From: Candidatus Electronema halotolerans
Lineage (GTDB): Bacteria > Desulfobacterota > Desulfobulbia > Desulfobulbales > Desulfobulbaceae
Direction of reading: 5' to 3'
DNA: 32,000 nt
Assembly: GCA_942493095.1 (NCBI GenBank)
Contig: OW818675.1
Location: 1,890,001 to 1,922,000, forward strand
Position 1 is the stretch's first letter. Every line of letters begins with the position of its first letter. Below, one piece after another: positions 1,671 to 18,258 of this stretch. Made by a program: the position numbers and the translations under genes. The notes under the pieces are model-generated. The model ran no database searches, had not been told where the DNA came from, and saw nothing but the letters and a program-made list of their open reading frames with translations.

Positions 1671-1700
1671 GCCTATTTTTTTCCGTCCTGGCAGCCAGTG

Positions 1701-1861
1701 TCTTGTCAGACAAGTCCCAAGGCAGTTGTCAAGAAACTCCTTTGGGAGTTATCAGAGAACTGACTAAGGAGTTGTGAAGAAACTGCCAAGGGACTTGTCA
1801 GACAACTTGCCGGGCAGTTGCCAAGCAACTCGCTGGTGAGTTCCGCAGCAGAATCCTTGCT
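1701..1861. repeat. Seven head-to-tail 23-bp units, each with a 15-bp imperfect dyad (consensus about AGTTGTC-N-GACAACT plus an 8-bp spacer)
   Basis: Units read off the sequence at exact 23-bp phasing: 1701 TCTTGTCAGACAAGTCCCAAGGC; 1724 AGTTGTCAAGAAACTCCTTTGGG; 1747 AGTTATCAGAGAACTGACTAAGG; 1770 AGTTGTGAAGAAACTGCCAAGGG; 1793 ACTTGTCAGACAACTTGCCGGGC; 1816 AGTTGCCAAGCAACTCGCTGGTG; 1839 AGTTCCGCAGCAGAATCCTTGCT. The last unit is the most degenerate. The array is non-coding and lies between divergent genes. Confidence 0.85.
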
Positions 1862-5241: not shown

Positions 5242-5931
5242 ATGGCAAAAGAAAAAATCCTGCTGGTCGAGGATGCCGAGGACATTCTCGAATTGGTCCG
5301 CTACAATCTGAGCAAGGAAGGCTGGCAGGTGCGCTGCGCCATGTCCGGTGAAGATGCGCTGGCCGCCGTGCGTGAGCATGACGTTGACTTGGTCCTGTTG
5401 GACATCATGCTGCCTGGCATGGATGGGTATGAGGTCTGCCGCCGCCTGCGCCGCGATCCGTCTGCCGCGCATCTGCCAGTGATCATGCTGACCGCCAAAA
5501 GCGAGGAGACCGACATGGTGGTCGGCTTGGAGCTGGGCGCGGATGACTACGTGACCAAACCGTTCAGCCCCCGCGTCCTCATTGCCCGCATCAAGGCGGT
5601 GCTGCGCCGAAGGGAGCCGGGCGGGCAGGCAGCGGATGTTCTCAACCTCGGCGAGCTGCGGATTGACCGCTCCCGCCACGAGGTGCGCGTCAAAGGCGAG
5701 CCAGTGCGCCTGACTGCGACCGAGTTCGGCATTCTCCTCTGTCTGGCCCTGCGGCCCGGCTGGGTCTTCAGCCGCTATCAGATTGTCGAGGCTGTGCGGG
5801 GCGGAGATTACAGCGTCACAGACCGGGCCGTGGATGTGCAGATTGTCGGACTGCGGAAAAAGCTGGGTGAACTGGGCAGCTGCATTGAAACCGTGCGCGG
5901 GGTGGGCTACCGCTTCAGCGATCAAGGATGA
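5242..5931 (+). CDS. OmpR/PhoB-family response regulator (receiver plus winged-helix domain)
   Basis: Receiver motifs are ILLVEDAEDI and LVLLDIMLPGMDG. LTAKSEETDMVVGLELGADDYVTKPFSPRVLIARIKAVLRR is very PhoB-like. The C-terminus has LTATEFGIL...VDVQIVGLRKKL...IETVRGVGYRF. No histidine kinase gene is adjacent. Confidence 0.9.
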   Translation: MAKEKILLVEDAEDILELVRYNLSKEGWQVRCAMSGEDALAAVREHDVDLVLLDIMLPGMDGYEVCRRLRRDPSAAHLPVIMLTAKSEETDMVVGLELGADDYVTKPFSPRVLIARIKAVLRRREPGGQAADVLNLGELRIDRSRHEVRVKGEPVRLTATEFGILLCLALRPGWVFSRYQIVEAVRGGDYSVTDRAVDVQIVGLRKKLGELGSCIETVRGVGYRFSDQG

Positions 5932-5946
5932 GCAGGCAAGGCTGCC

Positions 5947-6249
5947 TCACCGCCTGCCCCAGACTGGATCGCCGCCAAAGCGGCCTGTCCACCAGTCCTG
6001 CTCAGAGAGATGCCGTTCCAGCTCCTCCGGGGCAAAGGAATACTTGTACTGGCTGCAATAGCGCAGAATCACAGCGTGAGCGGCATTGATCTTCCGGGTC
6101 ATCTCATTGCATTCCGCCGGATCGCCGCTGCCTTTGTCCGGGTGCCACTGCTTGAGCAGCTCGTGGTAGGCCGCCTTGATCTCGGCCATTGAGGCCCGCT
6201 CCGGCAGACCAAGCACAGCCTGCGCCGCAGCAATTTCCTTGCTGTTCAT
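5947..6249 (-). CDS. J-domain (DnaJ-like) protein, 100 aa
   Basis: The sequence AYHELLKQWHPDKG carries the HPD motif. The start codon overlaps the stop of the upstream methyltransferase gene (ATGA at 6246-6249). Confidence 0.8.
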   Translation of the reverse strand: MNSKEIAAAQAVLGLPERASMAEIKAAYHELLKQWHPDKGSGDPAECNEMTRKINAAHAVILRYCSQYKYSFAPEELERHLSEQDWWTGRFGGDPVWGRR

Positions 6250-6881
6250 GGCTTCCTGCCCCGGATGACCACGAACAGCCCTTGGCCGTGTCCCTCTTGG
6301 ATCAGCTCCTGCGCTGTGACCGCAGCCGCGTCCTGAAAAATGGTCTGGCAGCAGCGGAACTCGGTCAAGCCTGCCTCCCGCAGCAGGTCAAGAACCGCGT
6401 CAGCAGGGTGAAAAGTCGCCTGCCGGTAAAAAAGACTTTCCTTCTTGCGGGCGGCATAGACCTGCCCCAGCGGGCTGCTGCGGTCCAGCATGGCTATCAG
6501 CATCAGGCCGCCCGGCCTGAGCACCCGCGCCGCCTCCTGCACGGCCTGCCGCGCCTCATGGACAAAACAGAGCACTGTCACCATCAGGACAAGGTCGGCG
6601 GCGGCATTGCGGAAAGGCAGGGCCTCGGCTGCGCCGCTGATGATGCTGATGCCCCGCTGCCGGGCCAAGGCCGCCATTGCCGCGCATGGCTCCACGCCGA
6701 CTTGGATGCCGAGCGGCCCGGCAAAGCGGCCTGTGCCTGCGCCGACCTCCACGCCCAAGCCGCAGCCTGTGGCTGGCAGCAGATGACGCACTGCCCGCAG
6801 CTCGGCCTCATAAGCCAAGCGATTTTCGTCAAACCAGCAGTCATAGCGCAGGGCGTGCTCCTGATATGGCCCGATCTTCAT
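6246..6881 (-). CDS. Class I SAM-dependent methyltransferase, 211 aa
   Basis: Motif I is GVEVGAGTGRFA, with a later LRPGGLMLI motif. The start at 6881 abuts the stop of the upstream CGGC gene at 6882. Confidence 0.8.
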   Translation of the reverse strand: MKIGPYQEHALRYDCWFDENRLAYEAELRAVRHLLPATGCGLGVEVGAGTGRFAGPLGIQVGVEPCAAMAALARQRGISIISGAAEALPFRNAAADLVLMVTVLCFVHEARQAVQEAARVLRPGGLMLIAMLDRSSPLGQVYAARKKESLFYRQATFHPADAVLDLLREAGLTEFRCCQTIFQDAAAVTAQELIQEGHGQGLFVVIRGRKP

Positions 6882-7214
6882 TTAGTGGGTGTAGTCAAGG
6901 ATGGGAATGTCCGGCCCCAGCTTTTTGGCCACCGCCGCCCTCATCAGTTCATAGTGCGGACAGACCATGCCGAGCGGCTTGCCCTGACTGATGCAGGAGG
7001 CAAAGGCAATGGCCTCCGCGCCCCGGTCAACCATGACTTTGGCCCGCGCCACAGCCCGTTTGCCCGGACAGCCGCCGCAGCTGACAAAGCCGACAATCTC
7101 TGCCGGGCCAAGCGGCTCAAAGCCCAGCTCGCCCATTGGCGCGACCTTGAAGTCTGTAGTGCCCGGACAGATGTCCTCGGTTTCCTGACAGCGGATGATG
7201 CCAACTTTCTTCAT
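6882..7214 (-). CDS. CGGC-domain protein, 110 aa
   Basis: Lies in ORF 6882..7343. The ATG at 7214 has AGGAGG 6 nt upstream. The protein starts MKKVGIIRCQ and contains VSCGGCPGKRAV and ASCISQG, the CGGC-domain pattern. Confidence 0.7.
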   Translation of the reverse strand: MKKVGIIRCQETEDICPGTTDFKVAPMGELGFEPLGPAEIVGFVSCGGCPGKRAVARAKVMVDRGAEAIAFASCISQGKPLGMVCPHYELMRAAVAKKLGPDIPILDYTH

Positions 7215-7347
7215 AGTTTCCTCCTGTTGCTTGCGCGCTGCATATCTGCTGCGCTGGTTGGATTCTTTCCTGTTAAGCTGCGGGACGCGGTGCTGGTCAC
7301 TTGATGAATTCAGGATTGCCAACCTTTTCGCGTTGGAACACAATGAA

Positions 7348-7848
7348 TCATCTTTGCTTTGAGCGAAGAATGACTGTCAATATACTTTTAGCCTCTTCGC
7401 TGTTAAGCAGCAGTTGTTGTATTTTAGCTTTTGTATAGCTTGTATCTTTCAGCAGACGGTCAAGAATGCCGACCTTGAAGATGGGCAGCAAGTCAGACGA
7501 GAAGAATGGAGGAATGACATTCGATTGACTGATTGGCTCAATAGCGGCCAGCTTTGTATTGTCATCGAAATGAAAATCAATAACAACGTTATTCTCCTCT
7601 CCAACATCGTTTTTCCAGTAAAAAGTATATCTCACTTTGAAACCTGAGTATGTATCATTTGCACTGTTAAATTCGCACCTGATGTACTCAGCAGTTGGAT
7701 AGGCGAAAAGCAAGATCATTTCCTCATTATACTCGATAAGAGACCTTGCTTTGTCTAAAGCAGATATCTTGGAAGCAAAAGCACTGGATGAGCACAACAT
7801 CATTGTGATGACAAGAGCCAACTGCATACTTTTTTTCAATGCAAACAT
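7348..7848 (-). CDS. Secreted hypothetical protein, 166 aa, AT-rich gene
   Basis: AGGAGGAG lies directly upstream of the ATG at 7848. The signal peptide is MFALKKSMQLALVITMMLCSSSAFA-SK. I recognise no family. A 60-nt line I counted at 7561-7620 was 35% GC. Confidence 0.65.
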   Translation of the reverse strand: MFALKKSMQLALVITMMLCSSSAFASKISALDKARSLIEYNEEMILLFAYPTAEYIRCEFNSANDTYSGFKVRYTFYWKNDVGEENNVVIDFHFDDNTKLAAIEPISQSNVIPPFFSSDLLPIFKVGILDRLLKDTSYTKAKIQQLLLNSEEAKSILTVILRSKQR

Positions 7849-8254
7849 TTTTCTCCTCCTTGACGTAATTTTTCTAATGGCCCAATATTGACTGGAGCAT
7901 TCTTCATCTTGTTGCTCTCACAACGTCATATTGATGACTCAGTTTTTTCCGGCACTCCTGAAGGTGGTCAAGGCGATTTCGGAGCCGAAACCGCCGCTTT
8001 TGACTCCGCTCAAGCAGCTCATTATCTTGCAATGCCTGTCAGGTCCATGTTGCAACAGGGGGGCAGCAACATCACAAAGAAGCGTCACCAATCCCAGCCC
8101 AACTTCTTGCCACCTGTTTATAATCAGATTTATCCTTTGAAGCAAGCAGGAATTAAGCCGTCAGCCAGAGCCTGGCAGCTTGGTCGGCCACAAATCGAAG
8201 CCGAATTATCGCCGCTGCGGCGGCTCTGTAGAGCATTGCGCAACGCCTGAGCAG

Positions 8255-8283
8255 TTGCCAAGCAAGGTGAAGTCACCTATAAT
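8255..8283 (+). promoter_or_regulatory. Candidate sigma70 promoter for galU-priA (TTGCCA-17-TATAAT)
   Basis: TTGCCA at 8255-8260, a 17-nt spacer, then TATAAT at 8278-8283. It lies 113 nt upstream of the galU ATG. Confidence 0.5.
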
Positions 8284-8395
8284 GCGACATGATTTTGCTC
8301 TGAGAACAAAATTTGCAAGACTGCCGTCCTCCGGCTCTCCTGTCGGCCCAACAACCTGAAGCTGCTTTTTCACATTCCGTCAAAAGAGAACGATT

Positions 8396-9289
8396 ATGCA
8401 ACAAATCCGCAAAGCTGTCATTCCTGTGGCCGGTCTCGGCACCCGCTTTCTGCCCGCGACCAAGGCCATTCCCAAAGAAATGCTGACCATCATTGACCGG
8501 CCCACGATTCAGTACATTGTTGAAGAGGTGGTGGCCTCCGGCATTGAAGAGGTCATTTTGATCACCTCTGACGGCAAGTCAGCGATTGAAAAGCATTTTG
8601 ACTACGACTACGAGCTGGACAATGTCCTGAAGGAAAAGAACAAGCACCAGCTGCGGGATGAGCTGGCTCATATTTCTGACCTCATTGATGTGGTCTCGGT
8701 GCGGCAGAAAAAGCCGCTCGGCTTGGGCCACGCTATATGGATGGCCCGCAAGGTGGTGGGCAACGAGCCGTTCTTAGTCCTGCTCGGCGATGACCTTGTC
8801 CGCAGCGAAACACCCTGCTGCCGCCAGATGCTCGACCTTTATGAACAAGTCGGCGAATCCATTGTCGCCATTCAGCGGGTGCCAATGGAGCAGACTTGCA
8901 ATTACGGCATTGTTGAAGGCGAGGAAACCGATCTTGACCGGGCCATTAAGATCAATCGGATGCTGGAGAAACCGTCTCCGGGCATGTCGGATTCTGACAA
9001 GGCCATCATAGGCCGTTATCTGCTGATGCCGGAAATTTTTGAGATTCTCAGCAGCACCAAGCCTGGGCACGGCGGCGAAATCCAGCTCACCGATGCCTTG
9101 CAGACCCTTGCCAACCAGCGGGGCATGTATGCCTACGAATTTGAAGGCCGACGCTACGATGCAGGCGACAAGCTCGGCTATCTGAAAGCCATTGTTGATG
9201 TGGCCATGCACCATCCCACCCTTGGCAAATCCTTCAGGGAGTATCTTCAGACTGTCTCTTCCTGCGAATGCCGCGCCATCCACTCTTGA
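8396..9289 (+). CDS. galU: UTP--glucose-1-phosphate uridylyltransferase
   Basis: The N-terminus KAVIPVAGLGTRFLPATKAIPKEMLTIIDRPTIQYIVEE is the GalU signature. At 297 aa the length is right, and further motifs (LGDD, VEKP-like MLEKP, GRY) are present. Confidence 0.92.
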   Translation: MQQIRKAVIPVAGLGTRFLPATKAIPKEMLTIIDRPTIQYIVEEVVASGIEEVILITSDGKSAIEKHFDYDYELDNVLKEKNKHQLRDELAHISDLIDVVSVRQKKPLGLGHAIWMARKVVGNEPFLVLLGDDLVRSETPCCRQMLDLYEQVGESIVAIQRVPMEQTCNYGIVEGEETDLDRAIKINRMLEKPSPGMSDSDKAIIGRYLLMPEIFEILSSTKPGHGGEIQLTDALQTLANQRGMYAYEFEGRRYDAGDKLGYLKAIVDVAMHHPTLGKSFREYLQTVSSCECRAIHS

Positions 9290-9307
9290 GCTGCTGCCGG
9301 AGCAGCC

Positions 9308-11515
9308 ATGAGGCTTTATGAAGTTGCGGTCGCCGCGCCGCTGCCCGGCCCGCTGACCTATTGCCATGCCGAGGCTTTGCCGGTCGGCATCCGGGTGCTG
9401 GCACCGCTCGGCAGCCGCCTTTTGTCCGGGGTGGTGCTGACGGAACTGTCTGAAACAGACGGACAGTTCCTTGGCGAGATCAAGCCAATAGCCAAAGTTC
9501 TTGATCAAGAACCGCTTTTCCCGCCCGCGTTGATTCCCTTTTTCCGCTGGATGGCGGAATATTATCATCATCCCATTGGCGAGGTGCTCCGCACTGCCCT
9601 GCCTGCCACAGCGGCCAAAGCGAAAACCGAGATCGCGGTCCGGCTTTGCTCCCCAAAATCAGAGCAGCCTGCGGCCAAGCTCAAGCCGTCTGAGCTGAAA
9701 ACCTTGGACCTCTTTTATCAGCATAGCGGCGGCAGCCCGGTTCTGCCGCGTCAGGTGCTGACTAAAATTTATAAAGGTGCTGGCCAAGCTCTGCGCGGCT
9801 TGGCTGAGGCAGGCTTGGTCAGCTTGGAGGAGCGGCAGGTCTTGCGTGATCCCTTTGGCGACACACTGCCCTTTTTCGCCCGCCCGGAAACGTTGACCGA
9901 GGAGCAGAAGACAGTTGTGGCTGAACTGTGCCGCGCAGTCGATGCAGACGTATTTCAGCCCTTTCTTCTCCACGGCGTGACAGGCAGCGGCAAGACCGAA
10001 GTCTATCTCCGGGCCACAGAACACTGTCTGGCCCAGAAAAAAAATGTCCTTGTCCTTGTGCCGGAATTAGCCTTGGCTTCCCAGCTTGAGGCTCATTTTT
10101 ACTCCCGTTTTGGCAGCAAATTGGCAGTGCTGCACAGCGGCCTTTCTGAGGGCGAGCGATTTGATCAGTGGCAGCGCGCTCTCCACGGCGCGGCAAGAAT
10201 TGTCGTCGGAGCGCGATCAGCGATTTTTGCCCCCTTTGCCGAGCTGGGCCTGCTGATTGTCGATGAGGAGCATGAACCGGCCTACAAGCAGGACGAACAC
10301 CTGCGCTACAATGGCCGCGACATGGCTGTGCTGCGGGCGCGTTTTGCCGCCTGCCCAGTGCTGCTCGGCTCGGCCACGCCCAGCCTGACCAGCTTTTATC
10401 ATGCCCAGCAGGGCCGGTACAAGCTGCTGACCATGAGCAAGCGGATTGACGGCCAGCTCCTGCCCAAGGTGGAGATTGTTGATCTGAGCAAGGAAAAGCG
10501 GCCTAAGCCGGACTGGTTCTTTTCCGAGCGGCTGACCGCAGCTCTGCGCGACAACTTGGCCCAAGGGCTGCAAAGCCTGCTCTTTGTCAACCGGCGCGGC
10601 TATGCCTCATTCATGCTCTGCCGCGACTGCAAGGCCGTGGTGCGTTGCCGCAATTGCCGCGTCTCCCTGACCTTGCACCGAGGTAGCGGCAGGTTGATCT
10701 GTCATTACTGCGGCTACTCGCTCAAGCCAGTGGCCGCCTGCCCGGAATGCGGTTCCAGCGCAGTGGCTGGGCTGGGGCTTGGCTCGGAACGGGTGGAGGC
10801 GGAAGTGCGGCGGCTTTTTCCTGAAGCGCGAGTGGCCCGTTTAGACAGCGACACAGCTGGCAGCCGCAAGGACTATCTGGCCCTGCTTCAGCAGGTGCGT
10901 GAGCAGCAGATTGATATTCTGGTAGGAACGCAAATGGTGGCCAAGGGGCTGCATTTTCCCAAGATGACCTTGGTCGGCGTGGTCTGGGCGGACAGCGGCC
11001 TTGCCCTGCCTGACTGCAAGGCTGCGGAACGCTCCTTCCAGCTGCTGGCTCAGGTGACAGGCCGGGCGGGCCGGGGCGAGCATCCGGGCCGGGTGATCAT
11101 CCAGACCCATCAGCCCCAGCATTATGTGGTGGAAGCGGCCCGCGACCATGCTTACGAGAGAATGTGCGGCTTGGAGCTGGAGCTGCGGCAGGTGCTTGGC
11201 TATCCGCCTTTTGGCCGCCTGATCAACATTCGCTTCAGCAGCCAGAATGAAGCGCAGGTGGAGCGGACAGCGCAGGCGGCGGCCGAGCTGCTGCAAGCTG
11301 CCTTGGAGGCGAACAAGCTGGAAGTGGAAATTCTCGGCCCGGCCCCGGCTCCGCTTTCCCTGATCAGAAATCGGTTCCGCTGGCAGCTCTTGCTCAAAGG
11401 CGGGCGGCCAGAACAGCTTCATCAGCTTTGTGAGGTGCTGCTGCAAGAGAAAAAGCGGCTCTGCGGCACAACGGTACGGCTGGGAATTGATGTTGACCCG
11501 GAAAATATGATGTGA
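9308..11515 (+). CDS. priA: Primosomal protein N' (replication restart helicase PriA)
   Basis: Contains Walker A (GVTGSGKTEVY), the DEEH box and a Cys-rich zinc module (CRDCKAVVRCRNCRVSLTLH...CHYCGY...CPECGS). The C-terminal RFRWQLLLK...DVDP is also present. Length is 735 aa. Confidence 0.92.
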   Translation: MRLYEVAVAAPLPGPLTYCHAEALPVGIRVLAPLGSRLLSGVVLTELSETDGQFLGEIKPIAKVLDQEPLFPPALIPFFRWMAEYYHHPIGEVLRTALPATAAKAKTEIAVRLCSPKSEQPAAKLKPSELKTLDLFYQHSGGSPVLPRQVLTKIYKGAGQALRGLAEAGLVSLEERQVLRDPFGDTLPFFARPETLTEEQKTVVAELCRAVDADVFQPFLLHGVTGSGKTEVYLRATEHCLAQKKNVLVLVPELALASQLEAHFYSRFGSKLAVLHSGLSEGERFDQWQRALHGAARIVVGARSAIFAPFAELGLLIVDEEHEPAYKQDEHLRYNGRDMAVLRARFAACPVLLGSATPSLTSFYHAQQGRYKLLTMSKRIDGQLLPKVEIVDLSKEKRPKPDWFFSERLTAALRDNLAQGLQSLLFVNRRGYASFMLCRDCKAVVRCRNCRVSLTLHRGSGRLICHYCGYSLKPVAACPECGSSAVAGLGLGSERVEAEVRRLFPEARVARLDSDTAGSRKDYLALLQQVREQQIDILVGTQMVAKGLHFPKMTLVGVVWADSGLALPDCKAAERSFQLLAQVTGRAGRGEHPGRVIIQTHQPQHYVVEAARDHAYERMCGLELELRQVLGYPPFGRLINIRFSSQNEAQVERTAQAAAELLQAALEANKLEVEILGPAPAPLSLIRNRFRWQLLLKGGRPEQLHQLCEVLLQEKKRLCGTTVRLGIDVDPENMM

Positions 11516-11521
11516 GCAAAG

Positions 11522-11552
11522 CGAGGGCAGATACGCAGCGTACCTGCCCTCG
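11522..11552. terminator. Hairpin between convergent priA and the 497-aa gene
   Basis: CGAGGGCAG, a 13-nt loop, then CTGCCCTCG (9-bp stem). It is placed between the two stop codons at 11515 and 11579. Neither side has a strong T-run. Confidence 0.35.
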
Positions 11553-11578
11553 GTGAAAGTTGAAAGAGGGGTGAGAGA

Positions 11579-13072
11579 TTACTTCTCCGGTGTTACGCTG
11601 GCTGCGACCGCTTCAGCCATTTTTGCCCGCATTTCCTCAGCAGGGGGCATTTCCTTTTCCTTGCCCATATCAACCAGACTCATTGCCAGCGCGCCGATTG
11701 CCGCATTTTCATCCCCGGCTTTCCGCGATGATTTGTCTCTGCCGCCCATTGCCATAACATCTTCCATCAGCTCGTTGACTTGGAATGGCATCAGTCTGGA
11801 TTTCAGCACATTTATGATCTGGCTGCCGACCTCAGCGGCAACTCCTGCGCTGCGGTTTTCCGGTGCGGGGATGTTCAGTTCCTCAATCAGCGGAAAAGAC
11901 ATCATCGCTTCGGCAATGCGACCGATTGAAGCGCAGTTACGGCGATCTTGCGGCATCAGCCATTCAGCGAGGTTGCGCCAGTGCTGGCGGAGACGCATCA
12001 TCACCGGTGAATCATCAGCACCATTTCCTCTCAATCCATATCTTGGAGCACCATCACCATCTGGTCGCGGGCGGGCACCTGTTCCGTCAATATTGATGTC
12101 AAGAAAATGGTGCCAAGTCGCATCTGTCACCACTCTGCCAACTCCGGCCCGATGGCCATCATAAGCGGCAATAGCAATAAATTCTCGTGGAATCGGAGTA
12201 GCTTTGGGTATGTCATTAGGATTTCCAGGAACTTCCCCAGGGGCCAAGGGAAAGAAAAGAGGCCCTCCCTCAGACATGGATTTGGCAACAATCTCTGGTG
12301 AAACTGGGGTATTACCACTAATCTCGGGTGGCCATTCTCGTTTTTCCTCTCCGTCAAGATCGAAGAAGGTTTCCAGATTTTCTGGAATTATACACTCTCC
12401 TTCATGCGGATGATCTGGAATATGTACTATTGCCCGGCCATCTTGAGCTTGCATTAACGGATGAGGATTTCCTGCCCCCCCAGCTACAGTATCTCTATTC
12501 AGAAAGAGTCGCTGTGGATGAATATCTGATTCATCTGCAAATTCATACATTACATCGTCACCAGACAGCATAGTGGAAAGGCGATCAGGGCCACTTTGAC
12601 TTGGCACACCTTGGTCGAATGTCCACTTTCGCATACTGCGCACTCGTGGAATATCTTTGGCTGTTCGCGCTCCAAGGTCTTCATGGTCTCCTGTGGCAAA
12701 CACTCCGCCTCCTTCTTCCATGAATTTTTTGATTGCTGTAAGTTCACTGTCTTCAAGGATAGGTACGCCAAATCTCCCACGTGCCTCATCATCAAATGTA
12801 AAAATAAAGCAGACATCGTATCTTGATCTGCTTAACCCATTGCTTACATCATCGAATTTGAAATCCAGCAAGGTTCCAGCAGGTTCGTTATTTGGCCCCA
12901 GAATATTTGCTCGTGTCACCTCCATGCCTGCGCCCAAGAGTGTATCGACAAACTGTGAAAGAGAAAAGCCTTGAAATACTGCATTCTCTTTACTAAACCA
13001 CATATCCGTAACCACAAGCACACGCGGTGTGCAGCCATCGGCAAAAGCATTGATAATGTCTGGGTTAATCAT
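11579..13072 (-). CDS. Hypothetical 497-aa protein with N-terminal ThuA / class I glutamine-amidotransferase-like fold features (cassette gene 5)
   Basis: Lies in ORF 11579..13099. The ATG at 13072 has GGAGA 7 nt upstream. RVLVVTD...YDVCFIFTFDD...LTAIKKFMEEGGGVFATGDHEDLG has the layout of ThuA/DUF4159-type GATase1-like domains, but there is no nucleophile Cys at the elbow. There is no signal peptide. The C-terminal roughly 170 aa are encoded by higher-GC DNA. Confidence 0.6.
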   Translation of the reverse strand: MINPDIINAFADGCTPRVLVVTDMWFSKENAVFQGFSLSQFVDTLLGAGMEVTRANILGPNNEPAGTLLDFKFDDVSNGLSRSRYDVCFIFTFDDEARGRFGVPILEDSELTAIKKFMEEGGGVFATGDHEDLGARTAKDIPRVRSMRKWTFDQGVPSQSGPDRLSTMLSGDDVMYEFADESDIHPQRLFLNRDTVAGGAGNPHPLMQAQDGRAIVHIPDHPHEGECIIPENLETFFDLDGEEKREWPPEISGNTPVSPEIVAKSMSEGGPLFFPLAPGEVPGNPNDIPKATPIPREFIAIAAYDGHRAGVGRVVTDATWHHFLDINIDGTGARPRPDGDGAPRYGLRGNGADDSPVMMRLRQHWRNLAEWLMPQDRRNCASIGRIAEAMMSFPLIEELNIPAPENRSAGVAAEVGSQIINVLKSRLMPFQVNELMEDVMAMGGRDKSSRKAGDENAAIGALAMSLVDMGKEKEMPPAEEMRAKMAEAVAASVTPEK

Positions 13073-13204
13073 GGTGCTATCTCCTTTTTTTAACAGCATT
13101 GGATAGTTCGGCGTTATTTTTCCGTAACGCCGTGTTTAAAGAAGCTGGACAACCTTTGCCCGGCTTTTTCTTCTGATCATGCAACGTGGTTCAGCAACCT
13201 GTTG

Positions 13205-13630
13205 CTAACCAAACCAGATACTTACAATGACTCTTTGGTCATCTGTTATGATGTTCACTCTATTGGGTATGCTGTCCGCAGTAATAGGATCGCCGGTTTT
13301 ATAGACTCGCAAAGGTCGGCCAACCAACTCCTGTATCTGCACAGGCTGAGTATTCGGAATACTCTCTCCGTCACAGGGTTCAAAGCCTTGCCTGCCTCTG
13401 ATGCCGTCATTCAAAAAATGCCACCCATCTTCAGTGATTTCATAAGCATTCATATTGCCAGTCGGCGCGCCGCAGACAGCAGCCACGATATGTGACTGCT
13501 TTTCCATTTGTATGATGTTGCTGTCACCAATCAATTCAGCAAGCTCACGCCGCATTTCCTCCAAGGTGATTTCCCGTGCGGCCTCGCATTGAATCGTTCC
13601 GTCCTGCTTGCATACCCAAATATTGTTCAT
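13205..13630 (-). CDS. Small 141-aa protein with C-terminal peptidase-inhibitor I78/I13-like motif (cassette gene 4)
   Basis: GGAGGA lies 8 nt upstream of the ATG. The C-terminus ELVGRPLRVYKTGDPITADSIPNRVNIITDDQRVIVSIWFG fits the pattern lvG...Rv..pG..vT.D....RvNi..D....I..i..G. I do not recognise the N-terminal half. Confidence 0.6.
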   Translation of the reverse strand: MNNIWVCKQDGTIQCEAAREITLEEMRRELAELIGDSNIIQMEKQSHIVAAVCGAPTGNMNAYEITEDGWHFLNDGIRGRQGFEPCDGESIPNTQPVQIQELVGRPLRVYKTGDPITADSIPNRVNIITDDQRVIVSIWFG

Positions 13631-13653
13631 AGAGTTATTCCTCCTTGTTTTTC

Positions 13654-13691
13654 AAAAAAAGCTCTCCTGCGATCAGATGTTGCAGGAGAGC
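13654..13691 (-). terminator. Rho-independent terminator inside the cassette (after gene 3)
   Basis: On the minus strand: GCTCTCCTGC-AACATCTGATC-GCAGGAGAGC (10-bp stem, 13691..13661) followed at once by TTTTTTT (13660..13654). It starts 25 nt after the stop at 13717 and ends about 24 nt before the next ATG at 13630. Confidence 0.7.
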
Positions 13692-13716
13692 GGAGAGATA
13701 TAGTCAGGTTATTGCA

Positions 13717-14736
13717 TCAAACCTTCTCAAGTGTGTTGATGCTGATATGCGGCCAGCGGACAAGCCCTGGATGGCCGTCTTCACGCGGCATGAAGTCAAG
13801 GATGACAATCTGCAAGTATTGCAGGATCATTTTGTCAACTCCATGATCATCAATCCGCATGATCCAGAAGGTTGATTTCATCGAAGCGGCATTGGCCTGT
13901 TTGACGATAAAGGGGATATTGTTGATTCCTCCTGTCTCCACTGTGCTGTCCACTTTCAGAACGGCTGTTGTTTCGAGAATATTGATGCCAGCTACATCCC
14001 ACTGATCCCTTACTTTTTGCAGGAGCCTTTGCGGGTTGATCGGATCAAATCCATGAAAATGGCAGTCCGCAAAGTGTTTGTACGGTGCCAAGTAAGGATC
14101 ATTCAGGTCACGGGTATCTCCAACAGGCAGCCCACTCTTTAACAGCTTCGGTATTTCAACATCATCAGGAACGAACCCGCTTCTTCCCAAAGCCAGCACA
14201 GCATCCCCATGAGGAATTGTGGCCAGCCGGGCGAGGTCGATTTCGTTTAACCTTTCATCAACCATGTGCAGCCAGAGTCCCGGTTCACGATGAATGACCT
14301 TGCCATCAAAATCACCTGCATTTTCATCTTTTGGGAAATCTTCAGCAGAAATCTGGGTTATCATCTGCTGATAGTCAAGGGCAACCACCCTCTGGTCAAA
14401 ATCTGGGCCTGCTGCTGCGATGCCGATGTTGTCCAGATGTTTTCCTCGATTTGGCACCCCCTTGTCCACCAAATCAAATTTAAGCTCTTCGTTATACTGA
14501 TTCACAAGCAGCCGATAGTCAATCTGCTCTCCATCTGACATTTCAATCTGCTTTCCATCTGACATTGCATCTTGAAAAGGGAGAGCAATCATATTGAACC
14601 CTTGTCCTTCAAAGTTTGGTGTGTTGCACCAAACACCAGGCAAGTCTTTCAACGGGCCGAGATCAGAATCACCTGATACAGCTCTGGAAAGAGTTCTGCC
14701 GTTCGCTTTCAGCGTGTGAAACAATTCATTAGCCAT
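13717..14736 (-). CDS. Nitrobindin/lipocalin-like beta-barrel protein, 339 aa (cassette gene 3, paralog of gene 2)
   Basis: LGPLKDLPGVWCN...GFNMIALPF...YRLLVNQYNEELKF...HREPGLWLHM...ATIPHGDAVLALG follows the nitrobindin/THAP4-type heme-binding barrel pattern (L..L.G.W.G.G ... Y.E...F ... H.E.G). The C-terminal block FIVKQANAASMKSTFWI...RWPHISINTLEKV is shared with the paralog. No signal peptide. Confidence 0.6.
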   Translation of the reverse strand: MANELFHTLKANGRTLSRAVSGDSDLGPLKDLPGVWCNTPNFEGQGFNMIALPFQDAMSDGKQIEMSDGEQIDYRLLVNQYNEELKFDLVDKGVPNRGKHLDNIGIAAAGPDFDQRVVALDYQQMITQISAEDFPKDENAGDFDGKVIHREPGLWLHMVDERLNEIDLARLATIPHGDAVLALGRSGFVPDDVEIPKLLKSGLPVGDTRDLNDPYLAPYKHFADCHFHGFDPINPQRLLQKVRDQWDVAGINILETTAVLKVDSTVETGGINNIPFIVKQANAASMKSTFWIMRIDDHGVDKMILQYLQIVILDFMPREDGHPGLVRWPHISINTLEKV

Positions 14737-14814
14737 TGTTCATTTCCTTTTTTCAGGTTATTATGAATGAATTTAAAGCAATAGAATGAGAGTGGTTGCG
14801 ATAAAACAAGTCAA

Positions 14815-14839
14815 CATGAGCGCAATTTCTGCGCTCATG
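14815..14839 (-). terminator. Hairpin after cassette gene 2 (9-bp stem)
   Basis: CATGAGCGC-AATTTCT-GCGCTCATG. On the minus strand it is followed by TTGACTTGTTTTAT, which is T-rich but interrupted. Confidence 0.4.
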
Positions 14840-14862
14840 ATTTGCAAGGGAACCCGTAGAGA

Positions 14863-15861
14863 TCAGCTATCGACCTTCTCCAGCGTATTGATGCTCACAT
14901 GCGGCCAGCGGATAATGCCAGGCAGTCCGTCCTCACGGGCAAGGAAGTCAAGCAGGACAACTTGCGCATATTGCAGACGGAATCTGATTGAACCATCTGT
15001 CTCTTGAATTTCCTGAATCCAAAAGGTTGACTTCATCGAAGCAGCATTTGCCTGCTTCACAATAAAGGGAAGATTGACAATGCCTCCGGTTTCCGCAGTG
15101 CTGTCAACCTCCAGCACGGTTGTCCTGATAATATTTACATCTTTATTTGCTTCCTTCAGCAGCTTATGCGGATTGACCGGATCGAAACGTCCCTGAAATG
15201 GATTCTCGTGAAAATGCCTGTATGGCTCCATGTAGGAATCAGTGAGCGGCATCGGATATCCGATCGGCAGGCCATTAATCGCCTCGATCCTCGGCGGGCC
15301 GCTATGCACAGCACTTTTTCCCACAGCCAGCACAGAATCACCGTGGGGAATAGTGGCCAGTCTGGCAATATCGAAACTGTTTGTCCGTTCGTTCAACATA
15401 TGCAGCAAAAGTCCTGGCTCATGATGAATCGCAAGGCCGGGGCCGCCTGCCTTTCCGCTCTGTGGAAAATCATCTGCCGCAATTTGATGGATGACCTGCT
15501 CATAATCAATCGTCACAACAAATTGATCTGAATCCTCGAACGTATCTTCATGATGCGGGAATATCTGCGGATCAGGCACATTCTGCTGTGTCCGCTTTAT
15601 GCCCCGGTTAGGCACTCCTTTGTCCACCAAGGTGAACTTCAGCGTTTCGTTGTACCGATTTATCAGCAGCCGATAGTTCAGTCGTGCAAAGGCGAACGGG
15701 AGGGCGATCATGTTCCAGCCGTGTCCTTCAAGATTCGGCTCGTTTTTCCATGTGCCGGGCAGATGTTGCAACGGACCAAGAAGTTCCTGATCTCCTGCTG
15801 TTGCGGTGCTGATTTTCCGTCCTTCAGTCTGAATTCTTGCAAGTTGCTCTTGGATTGACAT
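14863..15861 (-). CDS. Nitrobindin/lipocalin-like beta-barrel protein, 332 aa (cassette gene 2)
   Basis: AGGAGG lies 5 nt upstream of the ATG. LGPLQHLPGTWKN...GWNMIALPF...YRLLINRYNETLKF...HHEPGLLLHM...ATIPHGDSVLAVG. By eye it is roughly half identical to the 339-aa paralog. No signal peptide. Confidence 0.6.
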   Translation of the reverse strand: MSIQEQLARIQTEGRKISTATAGDQELLGPLQHLPGTWKNEPNLEGHGWNMIALPFAFARLNYRLLINRYNETLKFTLVDKGVPNRGIKRTQQNVPDPQIFPHHEDTFEDSDQFVVTIDYEQVIHQIAADDFPQSGKAGGPGLAIHHEPGLLLHMLNERTNSFDIARLATIPHGDSVLAVGKSAVHSGPPRIEAINGLPIGYPMPLTDSYMEPYRHFHENPFQGRFDPVNPHKLLKEANKDVNIIRTTVLEVDSTAETGGIVNLPFIVKQANAASMKSTFWIQEIQETDGSIRFRLQYAQVVLLDFLAREDGLPGIIRWPHVSINTLEKVDS

Positions 15862-15959
15862 CTATTCCTCCTTTGGAAATGTTTAAGACAGCTCGCTTGC
15901 GAGCAGATTGGAAAATTTCCTTGATCAAGCGGTGAGCGATCAAGGAGAGAGAAATCCAT

Positions 15960-16952
15960 TCAGATATCAATATAAAACCACGTTGGAATGACTCCAGCCT
16001 GCCAGCATGCCCGTGCGTAACGGGCTGCGTCCCTCATGGTGTCGATTGCTGTTCTCCACAAACTCTCTGGTGAAATAGGGCTGCCTGGATTCAAAGTCCA
16101 AAGCGGATTGAGCGATCCCATCATTGCCATGAATTTGCCTTGCAAGGCATCATTGGCCGGATACTTCGGATTGCGTTGGCCTGTGTACACATCAGGAAAA
16201 CCTGTCTGCTGGATATGGAGAAGACGGCCAAAATGGGAATATTGTTTTAACATCACCTCTTGGTAAGGTGCGCTATGCGCTCCAGCAGGCGCACGGTTGT
16301 CCATCTGATATTGCGATTCAACTGGAAAGTCTGAAGGTTTGTAGGGCTTCTGAATGGGTGAGGTCATACGACGGCCCTCGCCCTGCTCTTCAATGGCTGT
16401 AACAGCTTCTTTTGCGTCACCAATGTTGCAGATGATCTGCGGATATTCCTGCTGAATCCACCGCGCCTGCTGATTTCTGCTGGTCCAGCTAAACTGACTT
16501 GCCCCGACGCTTTGAATGCCGCAGATCAGAGCATGGTACATTTCACCGATGGAGCTGTAAGGAAAAGTCGGCGTGTTGTTGCCGTCTGGTGTTGGATCAT
16601 TTGGCCCCAATGTGTGCTCTGGGGTCTCAATAGCCAGCATTGTATTGAGTGTCTCAGCATTGAGCGGCCCCATTTTAGCATTGAGAACTGTTCCTGGCTT
16701 TAAGTACGGTATGTTTGTTCCATAAGCAGGAAACTGAAAGTTTGGAGTCGTATCAAGCGCAAGACAAAGGTTGGCTGCCAGTTGCAGGTGCATCATTTCC
16801 TCAATGAGGATTCCGTGCAAAATTTTGTACGCGTCACAATTCTCATCCTTGATGGAGGTCATTACGGTAGTGTAGAACGGAATAGTGTACAGTTCAATCG
16901 CCGCTGCCACCTGTGCATGTTTCTGAACCAGTTCCTTTGTCCAAGCTGTCAT
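15960..16952 (-). CDS. Ferritin-like domain protein (candidate diiron enzyme), 330 aa (cassette gene 1)
   Basis: AGGAGA lies 5 nt upstream of the ATG. AAIELYTIPFYTTVMTSI ... ILIEEMMHLQLAANLCLAL is the E...Y / EExxH helix pair typical of the uncharacterised 'Ferritin-like' family, the one also found in VioB-type proteins. No signal peptide. Confidence 0.65.
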   Translation of the reverse strand: MTAWTKELVQKHAQVAAAIELYTIPFYTTVMTSIKDENCDAYKILHGILIEEMMHLQLAANLCLALDTTPNFQFPAYGTNIPYLKPGTVLNAKMGPLNAETLNTMLAIETPEHTLGPNDPTPDGNNTPTFPYSSIGEMYHALICGIQSVGASQFSWTSRNQQARWIQQEYPQIICNIGDAKEAVTAIEEQGEGRRMTSPIQKPYKPSDFPVESQYQMDNRAPAGAHSAPYQEVMLKQYSHFGRLLHIQQTGFPDVYTGQRNPKYPANDALQGKFMAMMGSLNPLWTLNPGSPISPESLWRTAIDTMRDAARYARACWQAGVIPTWFYIDI

Positions 16953-16976
16953 CGCAATCTCCTTTTCTTACAGAAT

Positions 16977-16992
16977 GTATAAATATTTATAC
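16977..16992. promoter_or_regulatory. Perfect 16-bp AT-rich palindrome GTATAAATATTTATAC in the cassette promoter region
   Basis: It lies 25-40 nt upstream of the gene-1 ATG (16952) and overlaps the only -10-like hexamers on the minus strand (TATAAA, TATACA). The surrounding 16953-17148 region is AT-rich. I could not find a convincing -35. Confidence 0.45.
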
Positions 16993-17148
16993 TAACTTTG
17001 ACATCCCTCTGGAAAAATATGCCATAGTTAATTTGTAAGTGAAGAAGCATGAAAAGTCAAATTATTTTTTACCACGCTGTGGTTTTTCTTGCAACTTTTC
17101 GGGATGATAAGAAAACTATTTTCAGACCGAACGTCAGCCAGTTCTGAA

Positions 17149-17188
17149 ACAAAAAAAGCGGTGCTTCCCGTATTAGGAAAACACCGCT
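17149..17188 (-). terminator. Rho-independent terminator of the AMIN-domain gene
   Basis: On the minus strand: AGCGGTG(TT)TTCC-TAATACG-GGAAGCACCGCT followed by TTTTTTTGTTT (A-run 17151-17157 on the plus strand). Confidence 0.65.
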
Positions 17189-17235
17189 TTCTCAAGCACT
17201 TGGTTCGGCTCGGTTATTTTTTGTCCGCCTTGTAA

Positions 17236-17295
17236 GCAAACAAGCTGGAGGTGGAAATTCTTTGTCCGGCTCCGCTCTCCCTGATCAGAAACCGG
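17236..17295 (+). pseudogene. 60-bp fragment homologous to the 3' part of priA (11309-11374)
   Basis: GCAAACAAGCTGGAGGTGGAAATTCTTTGTCCGGCTCCGCTCTCCCTGATCAGAAACCGG aligns with priA GCGAACAAGCTGGAAGTGGAAATTCTCGGCCCGGCCCCGGCTCCGCTTTCCCTGATCAGAAATCGG. The identical runs are 11, 11, 11 and 14 nt, with one 6-nt gap. The fragment translates in frame as NKLEVEILCPAPLSLIRNR, against PriA NKLEVEILGPAPAPLSLIRNR. Confidence 0.75.
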
Positions 17296-17313
17296 CAGAA
17301 TCTGTTCAACTAC

Positions 17314-18258
17314 TCAGTTCAAGTGCTTGGCAGCACTGCCCAGCGTGTTGATGATCAGGACAAAAAGATTATCATTTTTGAAAAAAACCTGCTGAAGATC
17401 ATAGCTTTTATTCGGCATTAAATCGAGCACCACCCGAATTTTCTGTTCCGCCGGATTGTTGTTGATGCGGATGCTGCGGACAAATTTGCCGTCTGCCGGA
17501 ACTGTCTCAGCCAGCCGCTCGCCAGCAACAGTGTCCTGAAAATCGCAGACCACTCTTGGCTTGTTCTCCTCCAAGCCAAAGACCACCGGCGGATGAAATT
17601 TGTTCAGCCTGAACATGACCATTTCCCCCCGGTTGGAATTTTTGTCAAACAGCACCGTGGTAAGCACTGTGGAGCTGCCATTGAATGAGGTGGCGGGCCT
17701 GCTGCTCTGCACTGTCTTCTCCTGCGGCGGCGCAGAGACGGCAGGAGGAGGCACTGTTTTCACTGCTGGCTGCCTGACAGGCGGCTGAACCTGCTTTTTT
17801 GGCGGCTTGCTGCTGCTGACCACAGGCGGAGCAGGCCGGGGCAATGGTTTGATGCCTGCATCATGGACAATGACGGTCAGGAGATGATGCTCCTGGTCAG
17901 GCTCCTGAATGGTCTGCACATGTCGGCCTTCCACCAAATCAAGCACCACCCGCGTCTTGCTTTCGTGAAGTCCCACCCGGACCCGTTCAACCAGCTTGCC
18001 GTTGATATCAACACTGTTTCTGATTCGTTTGCTGACCCCGGTGTCGCTGAAATCAAAAACCAAACGGGGCTTGCCCTCTCTGATCGGGAAAAATTTCGGC
18101 ATCTCAGAACCGGTCAGACGAAAAATGATCCGCTCTTCGTTCGGGGAGATGCTCTCAAAACGGATATCTTGCAAAAGCTGGGCTGCTGCAGCTGCGGGCA
18201 GGCTGTGCAAAAAAGTGAACAGGAGCGCGAGTGCTGCCGCTGAAATAATTCTCAACAT
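17314..18258 (-). CDS. Secreted protein with two AMIN domains joined by a Pro-rich linker, 314 aa
   Basis: The signal peptide is MLRIISAAALALLFTFLHSLPAAAA. There are two copies of the AMIN-like pattern: RIIFRLTG...PRLVFDF...VERVRVGLHESKTRVVLDL, and EMVMFRLNK...PRVVCDF...VRSIRINNNPAEQKIRVVLDL. The linker is PLPRPAPPVVSSSKPPKKQVQPPVRQPAVKTVPPPAVSAPP. Confidence 0.75.
   Translation of the reverse strand: MLRIISAAALALLFTFLHSLPAAAAAQLLQDIRFESISPNEERIIFRLTGSEMPKFFPIREGKPRLVFDFSDTGVSKRIRNSVDINGKLVERVRVGLHESKTRVVLDLVEGRHVQTIQEPDQEHHLLTVIVHDAGIKPLPRPAPPVVSSSKPPKKQVQPPVRQPAVKTVPPPAVSAPPQEKTVQSSRPATSFNGSSTVLTTVLFDKNSNRGEMVMFRLNKFHPPVVFGLEENKPRVVCDFQDTVAGERLAETVPADGKFVRSIRINNNPAEQKIRVVLDLMPNKSYDLQQVFFKNDNLFVLIINTLGSAAKHLN

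What the first reader, a model, noticed from the sequence alone, without database searches (positions are those of the whole stretch)
11309..17295. Imperfect 60-bp direct repeat of the priA 3' region brackets the cassette (insertion scar or att-like duplication)
A segment inside priA (11309-11374, encoding NKLEVEILGPAPAPLSLIRNR) recurs at 17236-17295 in the same orientation.

- The copies share four identical runs of 11 to 14 nt with one in-frame 6-nt gap. The second copy still translates as NKLEVEILCPAPLSLIRNR, but similarity stops at both of its ends.
- The repeats enclose about 5.9 kb. This holds the last 140 nt of priA, the whole low-GC five-gene cassette and its AT-rich promoter region.
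- This is the geometry expected when an element integrates into the 3' end of a gene and supplies a replacement end.
- No integrase, transposase or terminal inverted repeats are present.

The element would therefore be decayed, mobilised in trans, or acquired by homology-facilitated recombination.
Basis: seen in the sequence. Interest (0 to 1): 0.7.

Follow-up and report, generated by a model that had tools for sequence, protein, structure and literature searches.

The report
Decayed priA-fragment scar beside inserted cassette
A 69-base, decaying copy of part of the priA gene lies on the far side of a five-gene cassette in a cable bacterium; it is most likely a leftover of the event that placed the cassette next to priA, not a recombinase attachment site, and a sister species carries an independent scar of the same kind around a restriction-modification gene.

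Summary
The repeat is real. Window 11300-11374 (inside priA) recurs at 17227-17295 in the same orientation, with 60 of 69 bases identical and one 6-nt gap, far above shuffled controls. Similarity stops sharply at both ends.

The window is Candidatus Electronema halotolerans. Copy 2 is non-coding. It derives from this lineage's own priA, has lost two codons, and sits between the AMIN gene's stop codon and its terminator.

- **Against an att site.** There is no recombinase, no displaced remainder of priA after copy 2, and no foreign replacement end.
- **For an insertion scar.** Ca. Electronema sp. KV independently has a 56-nt fragment of the priA 3' end duplicated 3.3 kb downstream. It brackets an MmeI-family restriction-modification gene and is cut off beside an IS4 remnant. 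Among 147 priA loci, only these two show such a fragment. Ten other cable-bacterium loci keep priA followed by parE.
- **Conservation is not evidence of function.** Copy 2 is identical in a relative 23-34% diverged at four-fold sites, but it lies in a ~540-nt recombination tract.

Best reading: an old duplication of the priA 3' end linked to insertion ("long target duplication" type), since decayed and truncated. This is a modestly interesting member of a known kind.

The parts
9308..11515 (+). priA (replication-restart helicase, 735 aa), intact
   Evidence: Pfam PriA_3primeBD, DEAD, Zn_ribbon_PriA and PriA_C, and TIGR00595. It is 100% identical to PriA of Ca. Electronema halotolerans.
11300..11374 (+). 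Copy 1: the parental segment inside priA, 141-216 nt before the end of the gene. It encodes ALEANKLEVEILGPAPAPLSLIRNR.
11522..11552 (.). Hairpin just after the priA stop codon. L161 has the whole hairpin. L160 keeps only the left arm, so a synteny break lies in the loop.
11579..13099 (-). Cassette gene 5: a 506-aa protein with no family match
13205..13630 (-). Cassette gene 4: a 141-aa protein with a weak match to Inhibitor_I78, below the Pfam cut-off
13717..14736 (-). Cassette gene 3: FMP-type heme-binding protein (NF040572), a paralog of gene 2
14863..15861 (-). Cassette gene 2: FMP-type heme-binding protein (NF040572)
15960..16952 (-). Cassette gene 1: ferritin-like protein (PF12902)
16953..17137 (-). 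The cassette's own AT-rich upstream region. It travels with the cassette in a relative where the cassette sits elsewhere (L156).
17138..17226 (-). Junction-specific segment of unknown source. It contains a strong minus-strand intrinsic terminator (stem 17155-17190, U-tract about 17147-17157) that would end the AMIN transcript.
   Evidence: It is absent from L156 and from L158, L162, L089 and L090.
17227..17295 (+). Copy 2: a decayed, non-coding fragment of priA. It lies between the AMIN stop codon and the AMIN terminator, so it is antisense to priA in the inferred AMIN 3'UTR.
17296..17313 (-). Native 3' flank of the AMIN gene. Homology with AMIN loci of relatives ends at 17298-17300.
17314..18258 (-). 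AMIN-domain protein gene (314 aa)

Best explanation
Copy 2 is a non-functional, decaying relic of a duplicated priA 3' end.

**Proposed history**
1. In an ancestor of Ca. Electronema halotolerans and its closest relatives, the ferritin-like/FMP cassette was placed immediately downstream of priA.
2. The event used no site-specific recombinase and duplicated the target: the last 216 nt or more of priA. The pattern matches 'insertion with long target duplication'. One-sided homologous plus illegitimate joining would give the same result.
3. The copy attached to priA stayed functional.
4. The displaced copy at the far end of the insert decayed. It acquired four private substitutions and lost two codons.
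5. The displaced copy was later cut off 141 nt before the position of the stop codon, where it now meets the AMIN gene's 3' flank.

**Shown:** the repeat itself; its origin in this lineage's own priA; its non-coding state; its position at a junction; the absence of recombinases; and an independent parallel case in Ca. Electronema sp. KV.

**Inferred:** that cassette insertion and duplication were a single event; the original length of the duplication; and the later truncation.
For: **Origin of copy 2**
- It carries NKLEVEIL...IRNR, which is specific to this subclade's PriA.
- It differs from priA of the window, L161 and L160 at 9, 9 and 10 of 69 positions, but from KV priA at 18 (alignment; my count from it).
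- It keeps the outgroup base at two sites where window and L161 priA share a derived base. These are positions 9 and 57 of the repeat, window 11308 and 11356.
- This dates the duplication to about the time that the priA-cassette adjacency, shared by the window and L161, arose.
- All PriA relatives read GPAPAPL, so the 6-nt gap is a deletion in copy 2.

**Independent second case (L001, Ca. Electronema sp. KV)**
- priA 5685-5740 recurs at 8963-9018, with 49 of 56 bases identical, in direct orientation, z = 19.3.
- The repeats bracket the last 28 nt of priA and an MmeI-family restriction-modification gene.
- The KV copy carries KV-specific bases, so it arose separately.
- Its right edge abuts a 31-nt motif that recurs in another KV contig, followed by an IS4-family transposase remnant (NF033591, E = 1.3e-14). 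An IS insertion would explain why it is cut off.

**Specificity**
- Only these two of 147 priA loci have a priA fragment of 50 nt or more elsewhere in the locus.
- No other gene fragment lies in the window's intergenic regions.

**Ancestral state**
- galU-priA-spacer-parE is conserved in ten other cable-bacterium loci. It is broken only in the halotolerans/KV subclade.

**Known precedent**
- Restriction-modification genes flanked by direct target duplications of 46-423 bp, with no mobility genes, some overlapping the 3' end of a gene (PMC2853133, read).
Against: - No true empty site was found (priA with a single copy of the segment, followed by the sequence that now lies to the right of copy 2).
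- A simple insertion with target duplication predicts that copy 2 is followed by the remaining 141 nt of priA. It is not, so a later truncation has to be assumed.
- The insert's left limit cannot be fixed. L160 breaks inside the priA hairpin, and L161 already has the cassette.
- The source of 17138-17226 is unknown.
- The cassette is not a classical mobile cargo. A close relative carries it elsewhere without any priA fragment.
- L161 (priA-cassette) and L162 (AMIN next to der) come from one sample, but they may not be one genome.
Confidence: 0.5

Rival explanations
1. Rearrangement scar without insertion. Either a tandem duplication of about 11300-17226 was followed by deletion of nearly all of the second copy, or a short templated 'filler' patch was copied from nearby priA when the AMIN block was joined to the cassette's upstream flank.
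For: - Copy 2 sits exactly between two blocks whose homology to relatives ends at 17137 and at 17298-17300.
- Similarity stops at both ends, as expected for an isolated fragment.
- AMIN has a different neighbour in every other lineage sampled.
- An IS remnant at the KV junction shows that these regions do get rearranged.
Against: The duplication endpoints would have to fall within the last 216 nt of priA independently in two lineages with different downstream genes. That follows automatically if the duplication abuts an insertion point, but it is a coincidence for random tandem duplications.
Confidence: 0.3
2. Decayed att sites of an integrative element. The element would have entered the priA 3' end by site-specific recombination and supplied a replacement end, like phage 21 or e14 in icd.
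For: - Direct repeats bracket a block of lower GC.
- Two related genomes carry cargo at the same gene end.
Against: - There is no integrase or other recombinase in or beside the bracketed region in either genome, apart from an unrelated IS4 remnant outside it in KV.
- The two genomes duplicate different, non-overlapping parts of priA (141-216 nt and 28-84 nt before the stop), so there is no common core site.
- The priA 3' end shows no divergence step.
- The displaced copy does not run on to the old stop codon.
- No close homologs occur in the phage or plasmid collections, and the viral pattern hits were chance matches.
Confidence: 0.05
3. Domesticated regulatory element. Copy 2, transcribed within the AMIN 3'UTR, acts as an antisense RNA against priA mRNA.
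For: - It lies between the AMIN stop codon and a strong intrinsic terminator, on the strand antisense to priA.
- The predicted duplex with priA mRNA is much stronger than for shuffles.
- It is 69/69 identical in a relative whose four-fold sites differ by 23-34%.
Against: - The identity extends over about 540 nt, including synonymous sites of the first 60 ferritin-like codons (1 of 25 four-fold sites differ, against 45 of 110 in the rest). This is a recombination tract, not selection on copy 2.
- The same upstream region is only 67-70% identical in another relative.
- Substitutions in priA copy 1 are not matched in copy 2.
- There is no Rfam match.
Confidence: 0.05
4. Chance similarity or an assembly artefact.
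For: None beyond the short length of the repeat.
Against: - The score is far outside the shuffle distributions.
- The same structure appears in independent assemblies and in a related population.
Confidence: 0.01

Closest known systems
Insertion with long target duplication, described for restriction-modification genes (Nobusato et al. 2000, cited from my own knowledge; Furuta et al. 2010, PMC2853133, read)
   Same: - Cargo of a few kb is flanked by direct repeats longer than 30 bp that derive from the target.
- There are no mobility genes.
- Some of the repeats overlap the 3' end of a gene.
- The KV case has a restriction-modification gene as cargo, which is the textbook situation.
   Different: - The window's cargo is not a restriction-modification system.
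- The repeats are old (87% identical) and the distal copy is truncated.
- No empty site with a single copy was found, so the defining comparison is missing.
Homology-facilitated illegitimate recombination during natural transformation (definition from the abstract of PMC3240628, listed; original work by de Vries and Wackernagel 2002, cited from my own knowledge)
   Same: It needs one homologous anchor (here priA) and one illegitimate joint, and no recombinase. It can place foreign DNA next to a conserved gene.
   Different: - Published cases usually delete recipient DNA at the joint rather than duplicate it.
- Competence of cable bacteria is unknown.
- No donor could be identified.
Phage 21 / e14 integration into the 3' end of icd with a substitute gene end (cited from my own knowledge)
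   Same: The target gene stays intact, and a displaced fragment of its 3' end lies at the far side of the inserted DNA.
   Different: Those elements encode an integrase, use a fixed core site, bring a diverged replacement end, and leave a displaced fragment that runs to the old stop codon. None of these four features holds here.
3'UTR-derived or antisense small RNAs (general knowledge)
   Same: The position between a stop codon and an intrinsic terminator, and long complementarity to another mRNA.
   Different: There is no evidence of expression, processing or selection. The complementarity is decaying.

Membership tests
Integrase-type genomic island with att repeats in a gene's 3' end | A site-specific recombinase gene in or next to the element | tested here: not met
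   Pfam, NCBIfam and PADLOC scans of all five cassette proteins and AMIN gave no recombinase. In KV the only cargo is an MmeI-family gene.
Integrase-type genomic island with att repeats in a gene's 3' end | The repeats coincide with the limits of the inserted DNA, and the displaced copy continues to the old gene end | tested here: not met
   Homology to relatives ends at about 11537 and at 17137, not at the repeats. There is no priA similarity after 17295.
Integrase-type genomic island with att repeats in a gene's 3' end | The same core site is used in independent insertions | tested here: not met
   The window duplicates nt 141-216 before the stop and KV duplicates nt 28-84. The two segments do not overlap.
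Integrase-type genomic island with att repeats in a gene's 3' end | A replacement gene end of foreign origin | tested here: not met
   The identity of priA to L160, L161 and L001 shows no step change across copy 1 and the last 141 nt.
Transposon or IS with target-site duplication | A transposase, terminal inverted repeats and a short fixed-length target duplication | tested here: not met
   There is no transposase or terminal inverted repeat at the cassette ends. Repeats of 69-75 nt are far longer than transposase target duplications (general knowledge).
Insertion with long target duplication | Direct repeats longer than 30 bp flanking an insert shorter than 20 kb, with no mobility genes | tested here: met
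   Repeats of 69-75 nt bracket 5.9 kb in the window, and repeats of 56 nt bracket 3.3 kb in KV. The criteria are those of PMC2853133.
Insertion with long target duplication | The repeated sequence is present once at an empty site in a related genome, with both flanks matching | tested here: inconclusive
   Relatives without the cassette have a single copy inside priA, but none has the window's right flank (AMIN) after priA.
Insertion with long target duplication | The cargo includes restriction and modification genes (a criterion of the published screen) | tested here: not met
   The window cargo is ferritin-like, FMP heme-binding and unknown genes. The criterion is met only in the KV parallel, where the cargo is MmeI-family.
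Pseudogene fragment or scar at a rearrangement junction | Derived from a nearby intact gene of the same lineage, non-coding and decaying, located at a synteny break, and absent where the junction is absent | tested here: met
Antisense or 3'UTR regulatory RNA | Expression as RNA, and conservation or co-variation beyond the neutral expectation | tested here: inconclusive
   Expression cannot be tested with these tools. The conservation is explained by a 540-nt recombination tract, and changes in copy 1 are not tracked by copy 2.

The most novel reading that the evidence does not exclude
The scar has been put to use. Because it lies between the AMIN stop codon and the AMIN terminator, every AMIN transcript would carry 69 nt antisense to the priA coding region. 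This would couple expression of a cable-bacterium envelope protein to down-regulation of the replication-restart helicase. It would be an example of a regulatory 3'UTR born from an insertion scar.
Probability: 0.05. Interest if true: 0.6.

Novelty: new member of a known kind. Interest (0 to 1): 0.3.

Why it matters
The finding shows that in one subclade of cable bacteria the 3' end of priA is a recurrent landing or breakage point. There, several kb of DNA (a heme/ferritin-like cassette in one species, a restriction-modification gene in another) have been placed without any recombinase, each time leaving a duplicated piece of priA.

How such 'long target duplications' arise is still unknown. 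Natural replicates at one locus, with different duplicated segments, give a way to constrain the mechanism once complete genomes of the relatives are compared.

For annotation, the practical point is that copy 2 is a pseudogene fragment. It is not an att site, and its perfect conservation in a relative reflects recombination rather than function.

Tried and rejected
- **Extended homology.** I looked for further priA similarity to the left and right of copy 2, and for a remnant of the missing 141 nt in the AMIN 3' end. Scores were no better than shuffles.
- **Other priA fragments.** Weak blastx hits in the cassette's intergenic regions looked colinear with priA but were not significant at the DNA level.
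- **Source of 17138-17226.** There was no match in any fetched locus. A weak match to the AMIN 3' flank of L089 (z = 3.9 among 16 tests) is not convincing.
- **MITE or terminal-inverted-repeat structure around copy 2.** Only 10-15-nt matches were found, at chance level.
- **Known RNA families and tRNA targets.** None were found in the window.
- **Defence-system, phage or plasmid origin of the cassette.** There were no PADLOC hits, no phage hits, and only distant plasmid hits below 32% identity. Three viral-contig pattern hits covered only the 20-nt pattern itself.
- **Metagenome scan with PriA.** It returned nothing closer than 70% identity.
- **The 488-aa helicase beside AMIN in L089.** It is not PriA-like.
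- **An earlier impression I had to correct.** I first thought the region downstream of priA differs in every genome. An all-against-all comparison showed a conserved priA-parE arrangement in the other cable bacteria.
- **The 506-aa cassette protein.** No family or solved-structure relative was found.
Full report
**1. The observation**

The segment 11300-11374 lies inside priA (9308-11515, + strand) and recurs at 17227-17295 in the same orientation.

- Sixty of 69 aligned bases are identical and there is one 6-nt gap. The exact runs are 11, 11, 11 and 14 nt.
- The local score is 78. Shuffles of the intergenic query against the whole window, both strands, give 26.3 +/- 3.0 with a maximum of 36.
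- Sequence to the left of 17227 and to the right of 17295 is no more similar to priA than shuffled sequence is.
- Copy 2 still reads NKLEVEILCPAPLSLIRNR, but a stop codon lies directly upstream, so it is not in an ORF.

**2. What surrounds it**

- The window is from Candidatus Electronema halotolerans. Its AMIN and PriA proteins are 100% identical to that species' proteins, on a 3.2-Mb contig. The genome paper is PMC10030654.
- priA is followed by a hairpin at 11522-11552.
- Five minus-strand genes follow: a 506-aa protein with no family match, a 141-aa protein, two paralogous FMP-type heme-binding proteins (NF040572) and a ferritin-like protein (PF12902).
- The AMIN-domain gene is at 17314-18258 on the minus strand.
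- Copy 2 lies between the AMIN stop codon (17314) and a strong minus-strand intrinsic terminator (stem 17155-17190, then a U-tract). By inference it is therefore inside the AMIN 3'UTR and antisense to priA.
- The cassette has GC3 of 0.42-0.53, against 0.62-0.77 for most neighbouring genes. Several other genes in the window are equally low.
- The window has no recombinase between the repeats, no tRNA and no Rfam family.

**3. Where copy 2 came from**

- All PriA relatives read GPAPAPL at this point, so the 6-nt gap is a two-codon deletion in copy 2.
- NKLEVEIL...IRNR is specific to the window's subclade.
- Copy 2 differs from priA of the window, L161 and L160 at 9, 9 and 10 of 69 positions, and from priA of Ca. 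Electronema sp. KV at 18 (alignment; my count).
- Of the nine differences from copy 1, four are private to copy 2 and one is private to the window's priA. Two are sites where window and L161 priA share a derived base while copy 2 keeps the outgroup base. Two are ambiguous.
- So copy 2 was copied from this lineage's own priA after the split from KV, at or before the split between the window and L161. It has since drifted.

**4. Tests of the att and replacement-end idea**

*Identity across priA.* The identity of priA to L160, L161 and L001 shows no step change across copy 1 and the last 141 nt. The figures below are identities for the parts of priA upstream of copy 1, within copy 1, and in the last 141 nt.

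| Relative | Upstream of copy 1 | Copy 1 | Last 141 nt |
|---|---|---|---|
| L160 | 0.86 | 0.87 | 0.91 |
| L161 | 0.86 | 0.92 | 0.95 |
| L001 | 0.81 | 0.80 | 0.81 |

The end attached to priA is therefore native.

*Where relatives stop matching the window.*

| Locus | What it is | Where homology to the window ends |
|---|---|---|
| L160 | PriA 90%, followed by a Pyr_excise gene | about 11537, 22 nt past the stop, in the hairpin loop |
| L161 | PriA 89% | runs on into the 3' end of the 506-aa gene (contig end) |
| L156, L157 | cassette (ferritin-like 87%) behind a periplasmic-binding-protein gene | 17137, with no priA fragment |
| L158, L159 | AMIN followed by a Band_7 gene | 17298 |
| L162, L163 | AMIN followed by der | 17300 |
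| L089 | AMIN followed by a DEAD-box helicase gene | 17313 (just before the stop codon) |
| L090 | AMIN followed by mnmE | 17314 (the AMIN stop codon) |

- The stretch 17138-17297 (terminator plus copy 2) is therefore specific to the AMIN-cassette junction.
- That junction occurs only in the window, in two Logan assemblies of the same strain, and in one JGI population (L084-L088).
- No relative shows priA followed directly by AMIN.

**5. The perfect conservation of copy 2 is not evidence of function**

- Between the window and the JGI population, four-fold degenerate sites differ by 23% in AMIN and 34% in the ferritin-like gene. The 361-nt intergenic region differs by only 2.5%, and copy 2 is 69/69 identical.
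- The low-divergence tract (about 17317-16778) also covers the first 60 ferritin-like codons. There 1 of 25 four-fold sites differ, against 45 of 110 in the rest of the gene.
- This pattern indicates a recent homologous-recombination tract.
- In L156 the cassette's upstream region is only 67-70% identical, which is less than the coding sequence.
- The five JGI contigs are a single population, 99.4-100% identical to one another, so they count as one comparison.

**6. An independent parallel case**

I scanned each of 147 priA loci for fragments of its own priA elsewhere in the locus. Only two had a fragment of 50 nt or more: the window and L001, which is Ca. Electronema sp. KV with PriA 85% identical.

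- In L001, priA 5685-5740 (28-84 nt before the stop) recurs at 8963-9018. Forty-nine of 56 bases are identical, the orientation is direct, and z = 19.3.
- The repeats bracket the last 28 nt of priA and one 982-aa minus-strand gene. That gene has all four MmeI domains, so it is a type IIG/IIL restriction-modification enzyme.
- The KV copy carries KV-specific bases, so this is a separate event.
- Its right edge is followed immediately by a 31-nt motif that recurs (28 of 31) in another KV contig. An IS4-family transposase remnant lies after that (NF033591, E = 1.3e-14; Y-2-R-3-E-6-K motif).
- An IS insertion into the displaced copy would explain the truncation. The contig ends inside the IS remnant, so this cannot be confirmed.

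**7. The ancestral context**

- Ten other cable-bacterium loci (L002-L007, L014, L092, L093 and L122, from Electronema aureum-group and Electrothrix genomes and related metagenome contigs) share galU-priA, a spacer of 0.8-1 kb, and a parE/gyrB-like gene.
- This corrects my earlier impression that the region downstream of priA differs everywhere.
- The linkage is broken only in the halotolerans/KV subclade (window, L001, L160). The 32-kb window contains no parE.

**8. Interpretation**

The data exclude chance, an assembly artefact and an integrase att site. They fit a duplication of the priA 3' end that arose together with the placement of DNA directly after priA.

- In both genomes the duplicated segment lies within about 200 nt of the gene end.
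- The distal copy lies exactly at the far edge of the new DNA.
- Neither genome has a mobility gene inside the bracketed region.
- In KV the cargo is a restriction-modification gene.

This is the pattern described as 'insertion with long target duplication' (PMC2853133). One-sided homologous plus illegitimate recombination would give the same picture.

The model needs one extra step in each genome to explain why the distal copy is not followed by the rest of priA. In KV that step is an IS insertion, which has visible support. In the window it is a deletion or rearrangement at the AMIN junction, which is assumed.

The main rival is a tandem duplication trimmed by deletion, or a templated filler patch. 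It explains the isolated fragment directly, but it makes the clustering of both endpoints in the last 216 nt of priA a coincidence.

My confidence is about 0.5 for the insertion-linked duplication, 0.3 for the rearrangement-only reading, 0.05 for decayed att sites and 0.05 for a functional antisense element.

**9. Novelty and interest**

This is a new example of a known kind of scar, in an uncultured lineage, and it recurs at one gene end. It is useful for annotation and as a natural replicate for studying long target duplications. It is not surprising enough to rank high.

Noticed in passing
L001:5685-9440 (Ca. Electronema sp. KV, JAPEVH010000008.1): An MmeI-family restriction-modification gene (5801-8749, minus strand) is bracketed by 56-nt direct repeats of the priA 3' end. 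The distal repeat abuts a 31-nt motif also found in L090:304-334, followed by an IS4-family transposase remnant (about 9221-9440, minus strand).
   Followed up: yes
L002-L007, L014, L092, L093, L122, downstream of priA: The arrangement galU-priA, a spacer of 0.8-1 kb, then a parE/gyrB-like gene is conserved across Electronema aureum-group and Electrothrix genomes. It is broken in the halotolerans/KV subclade, and the 32-kb window has no parE.
   Followed up: partly
window 16778-17317: A tract of about 540 nt (the AMIN-cassette intergenic region plus the first 60 codons of the ferritin-like gene) is about 98% identical to a JGI population. That population's flanking genes differ by 23-34% at four-fold sites, so this looks like a recent recombination tract.
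   Followed up: yes
window 11579-16952: The five-gene cassette holds a ferritin-like protein (PF12902), two paralogous FMP-type heme-binding proteins (NF040572), a small I78-like protein and a 506-aa protein with no family or solved-structure relative. Homologs of the ferritin-like protein were found almost only in cable bacteria and cyanobacteria. The function is unknown.
   Followed up: partly
window 1697-1842; L003:1744-1927 and L003:16805-16943: Arrays of 5-6 tandem repeats with a 23-nt period lie in intergenic DNA. In the window the array is upstream of two paralogous Porin_4 genes (2756-3910 and 4012-5166). Arrays with the same 23-nt period occur in a related genome.
   Followed up: no
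L003:12240-12554: Three copies of a 63-nt hairpin-forming element (68-98% identical) lie immediately downstream of priA in a Desulfobulbaceae MAG. They look like REP or MITE-type elements, or terminators.
   Followed up: no
window 17216-17230 and 17257-17271: The patch in copy 2 that differs most from priA (ATTCTTTGTCCGG, around the 6-nt deletion) resembles the 15 nt that straddle the left edge of copy 2 (ATTTTTTGTCCGC), with 13 of 15 bases matching. This could be a trace of template switching or a chance match.
   Followed up: no
window 17193-17202 and 17320-17329: A perfect 10-nt inverted repeat (CAAGCACTTG / CAAGTGCTTG) flanks copy 2 symmetrically, with 24 nt on each side. One arm is in the last codons of AMIN. 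About 0.1 such matches are expected by chance in a region of this size (my own estimate).
   Followed up: no
L004-L008, L014 (Electrothrix priA): Electrothrix PriA proteins are about 820-870 aa, against 735 aa here. The tblastn matches split between residues 99 and 125, which indicates an insertion of about 100 aa after the 3'-DNA-binding domain.
   Followed up: no
L089:1-142: A perfect 71-nt inverted repeat with no spacer lies at the very start of the contig. It is most likely an assembly artefact.
   Followed up: no
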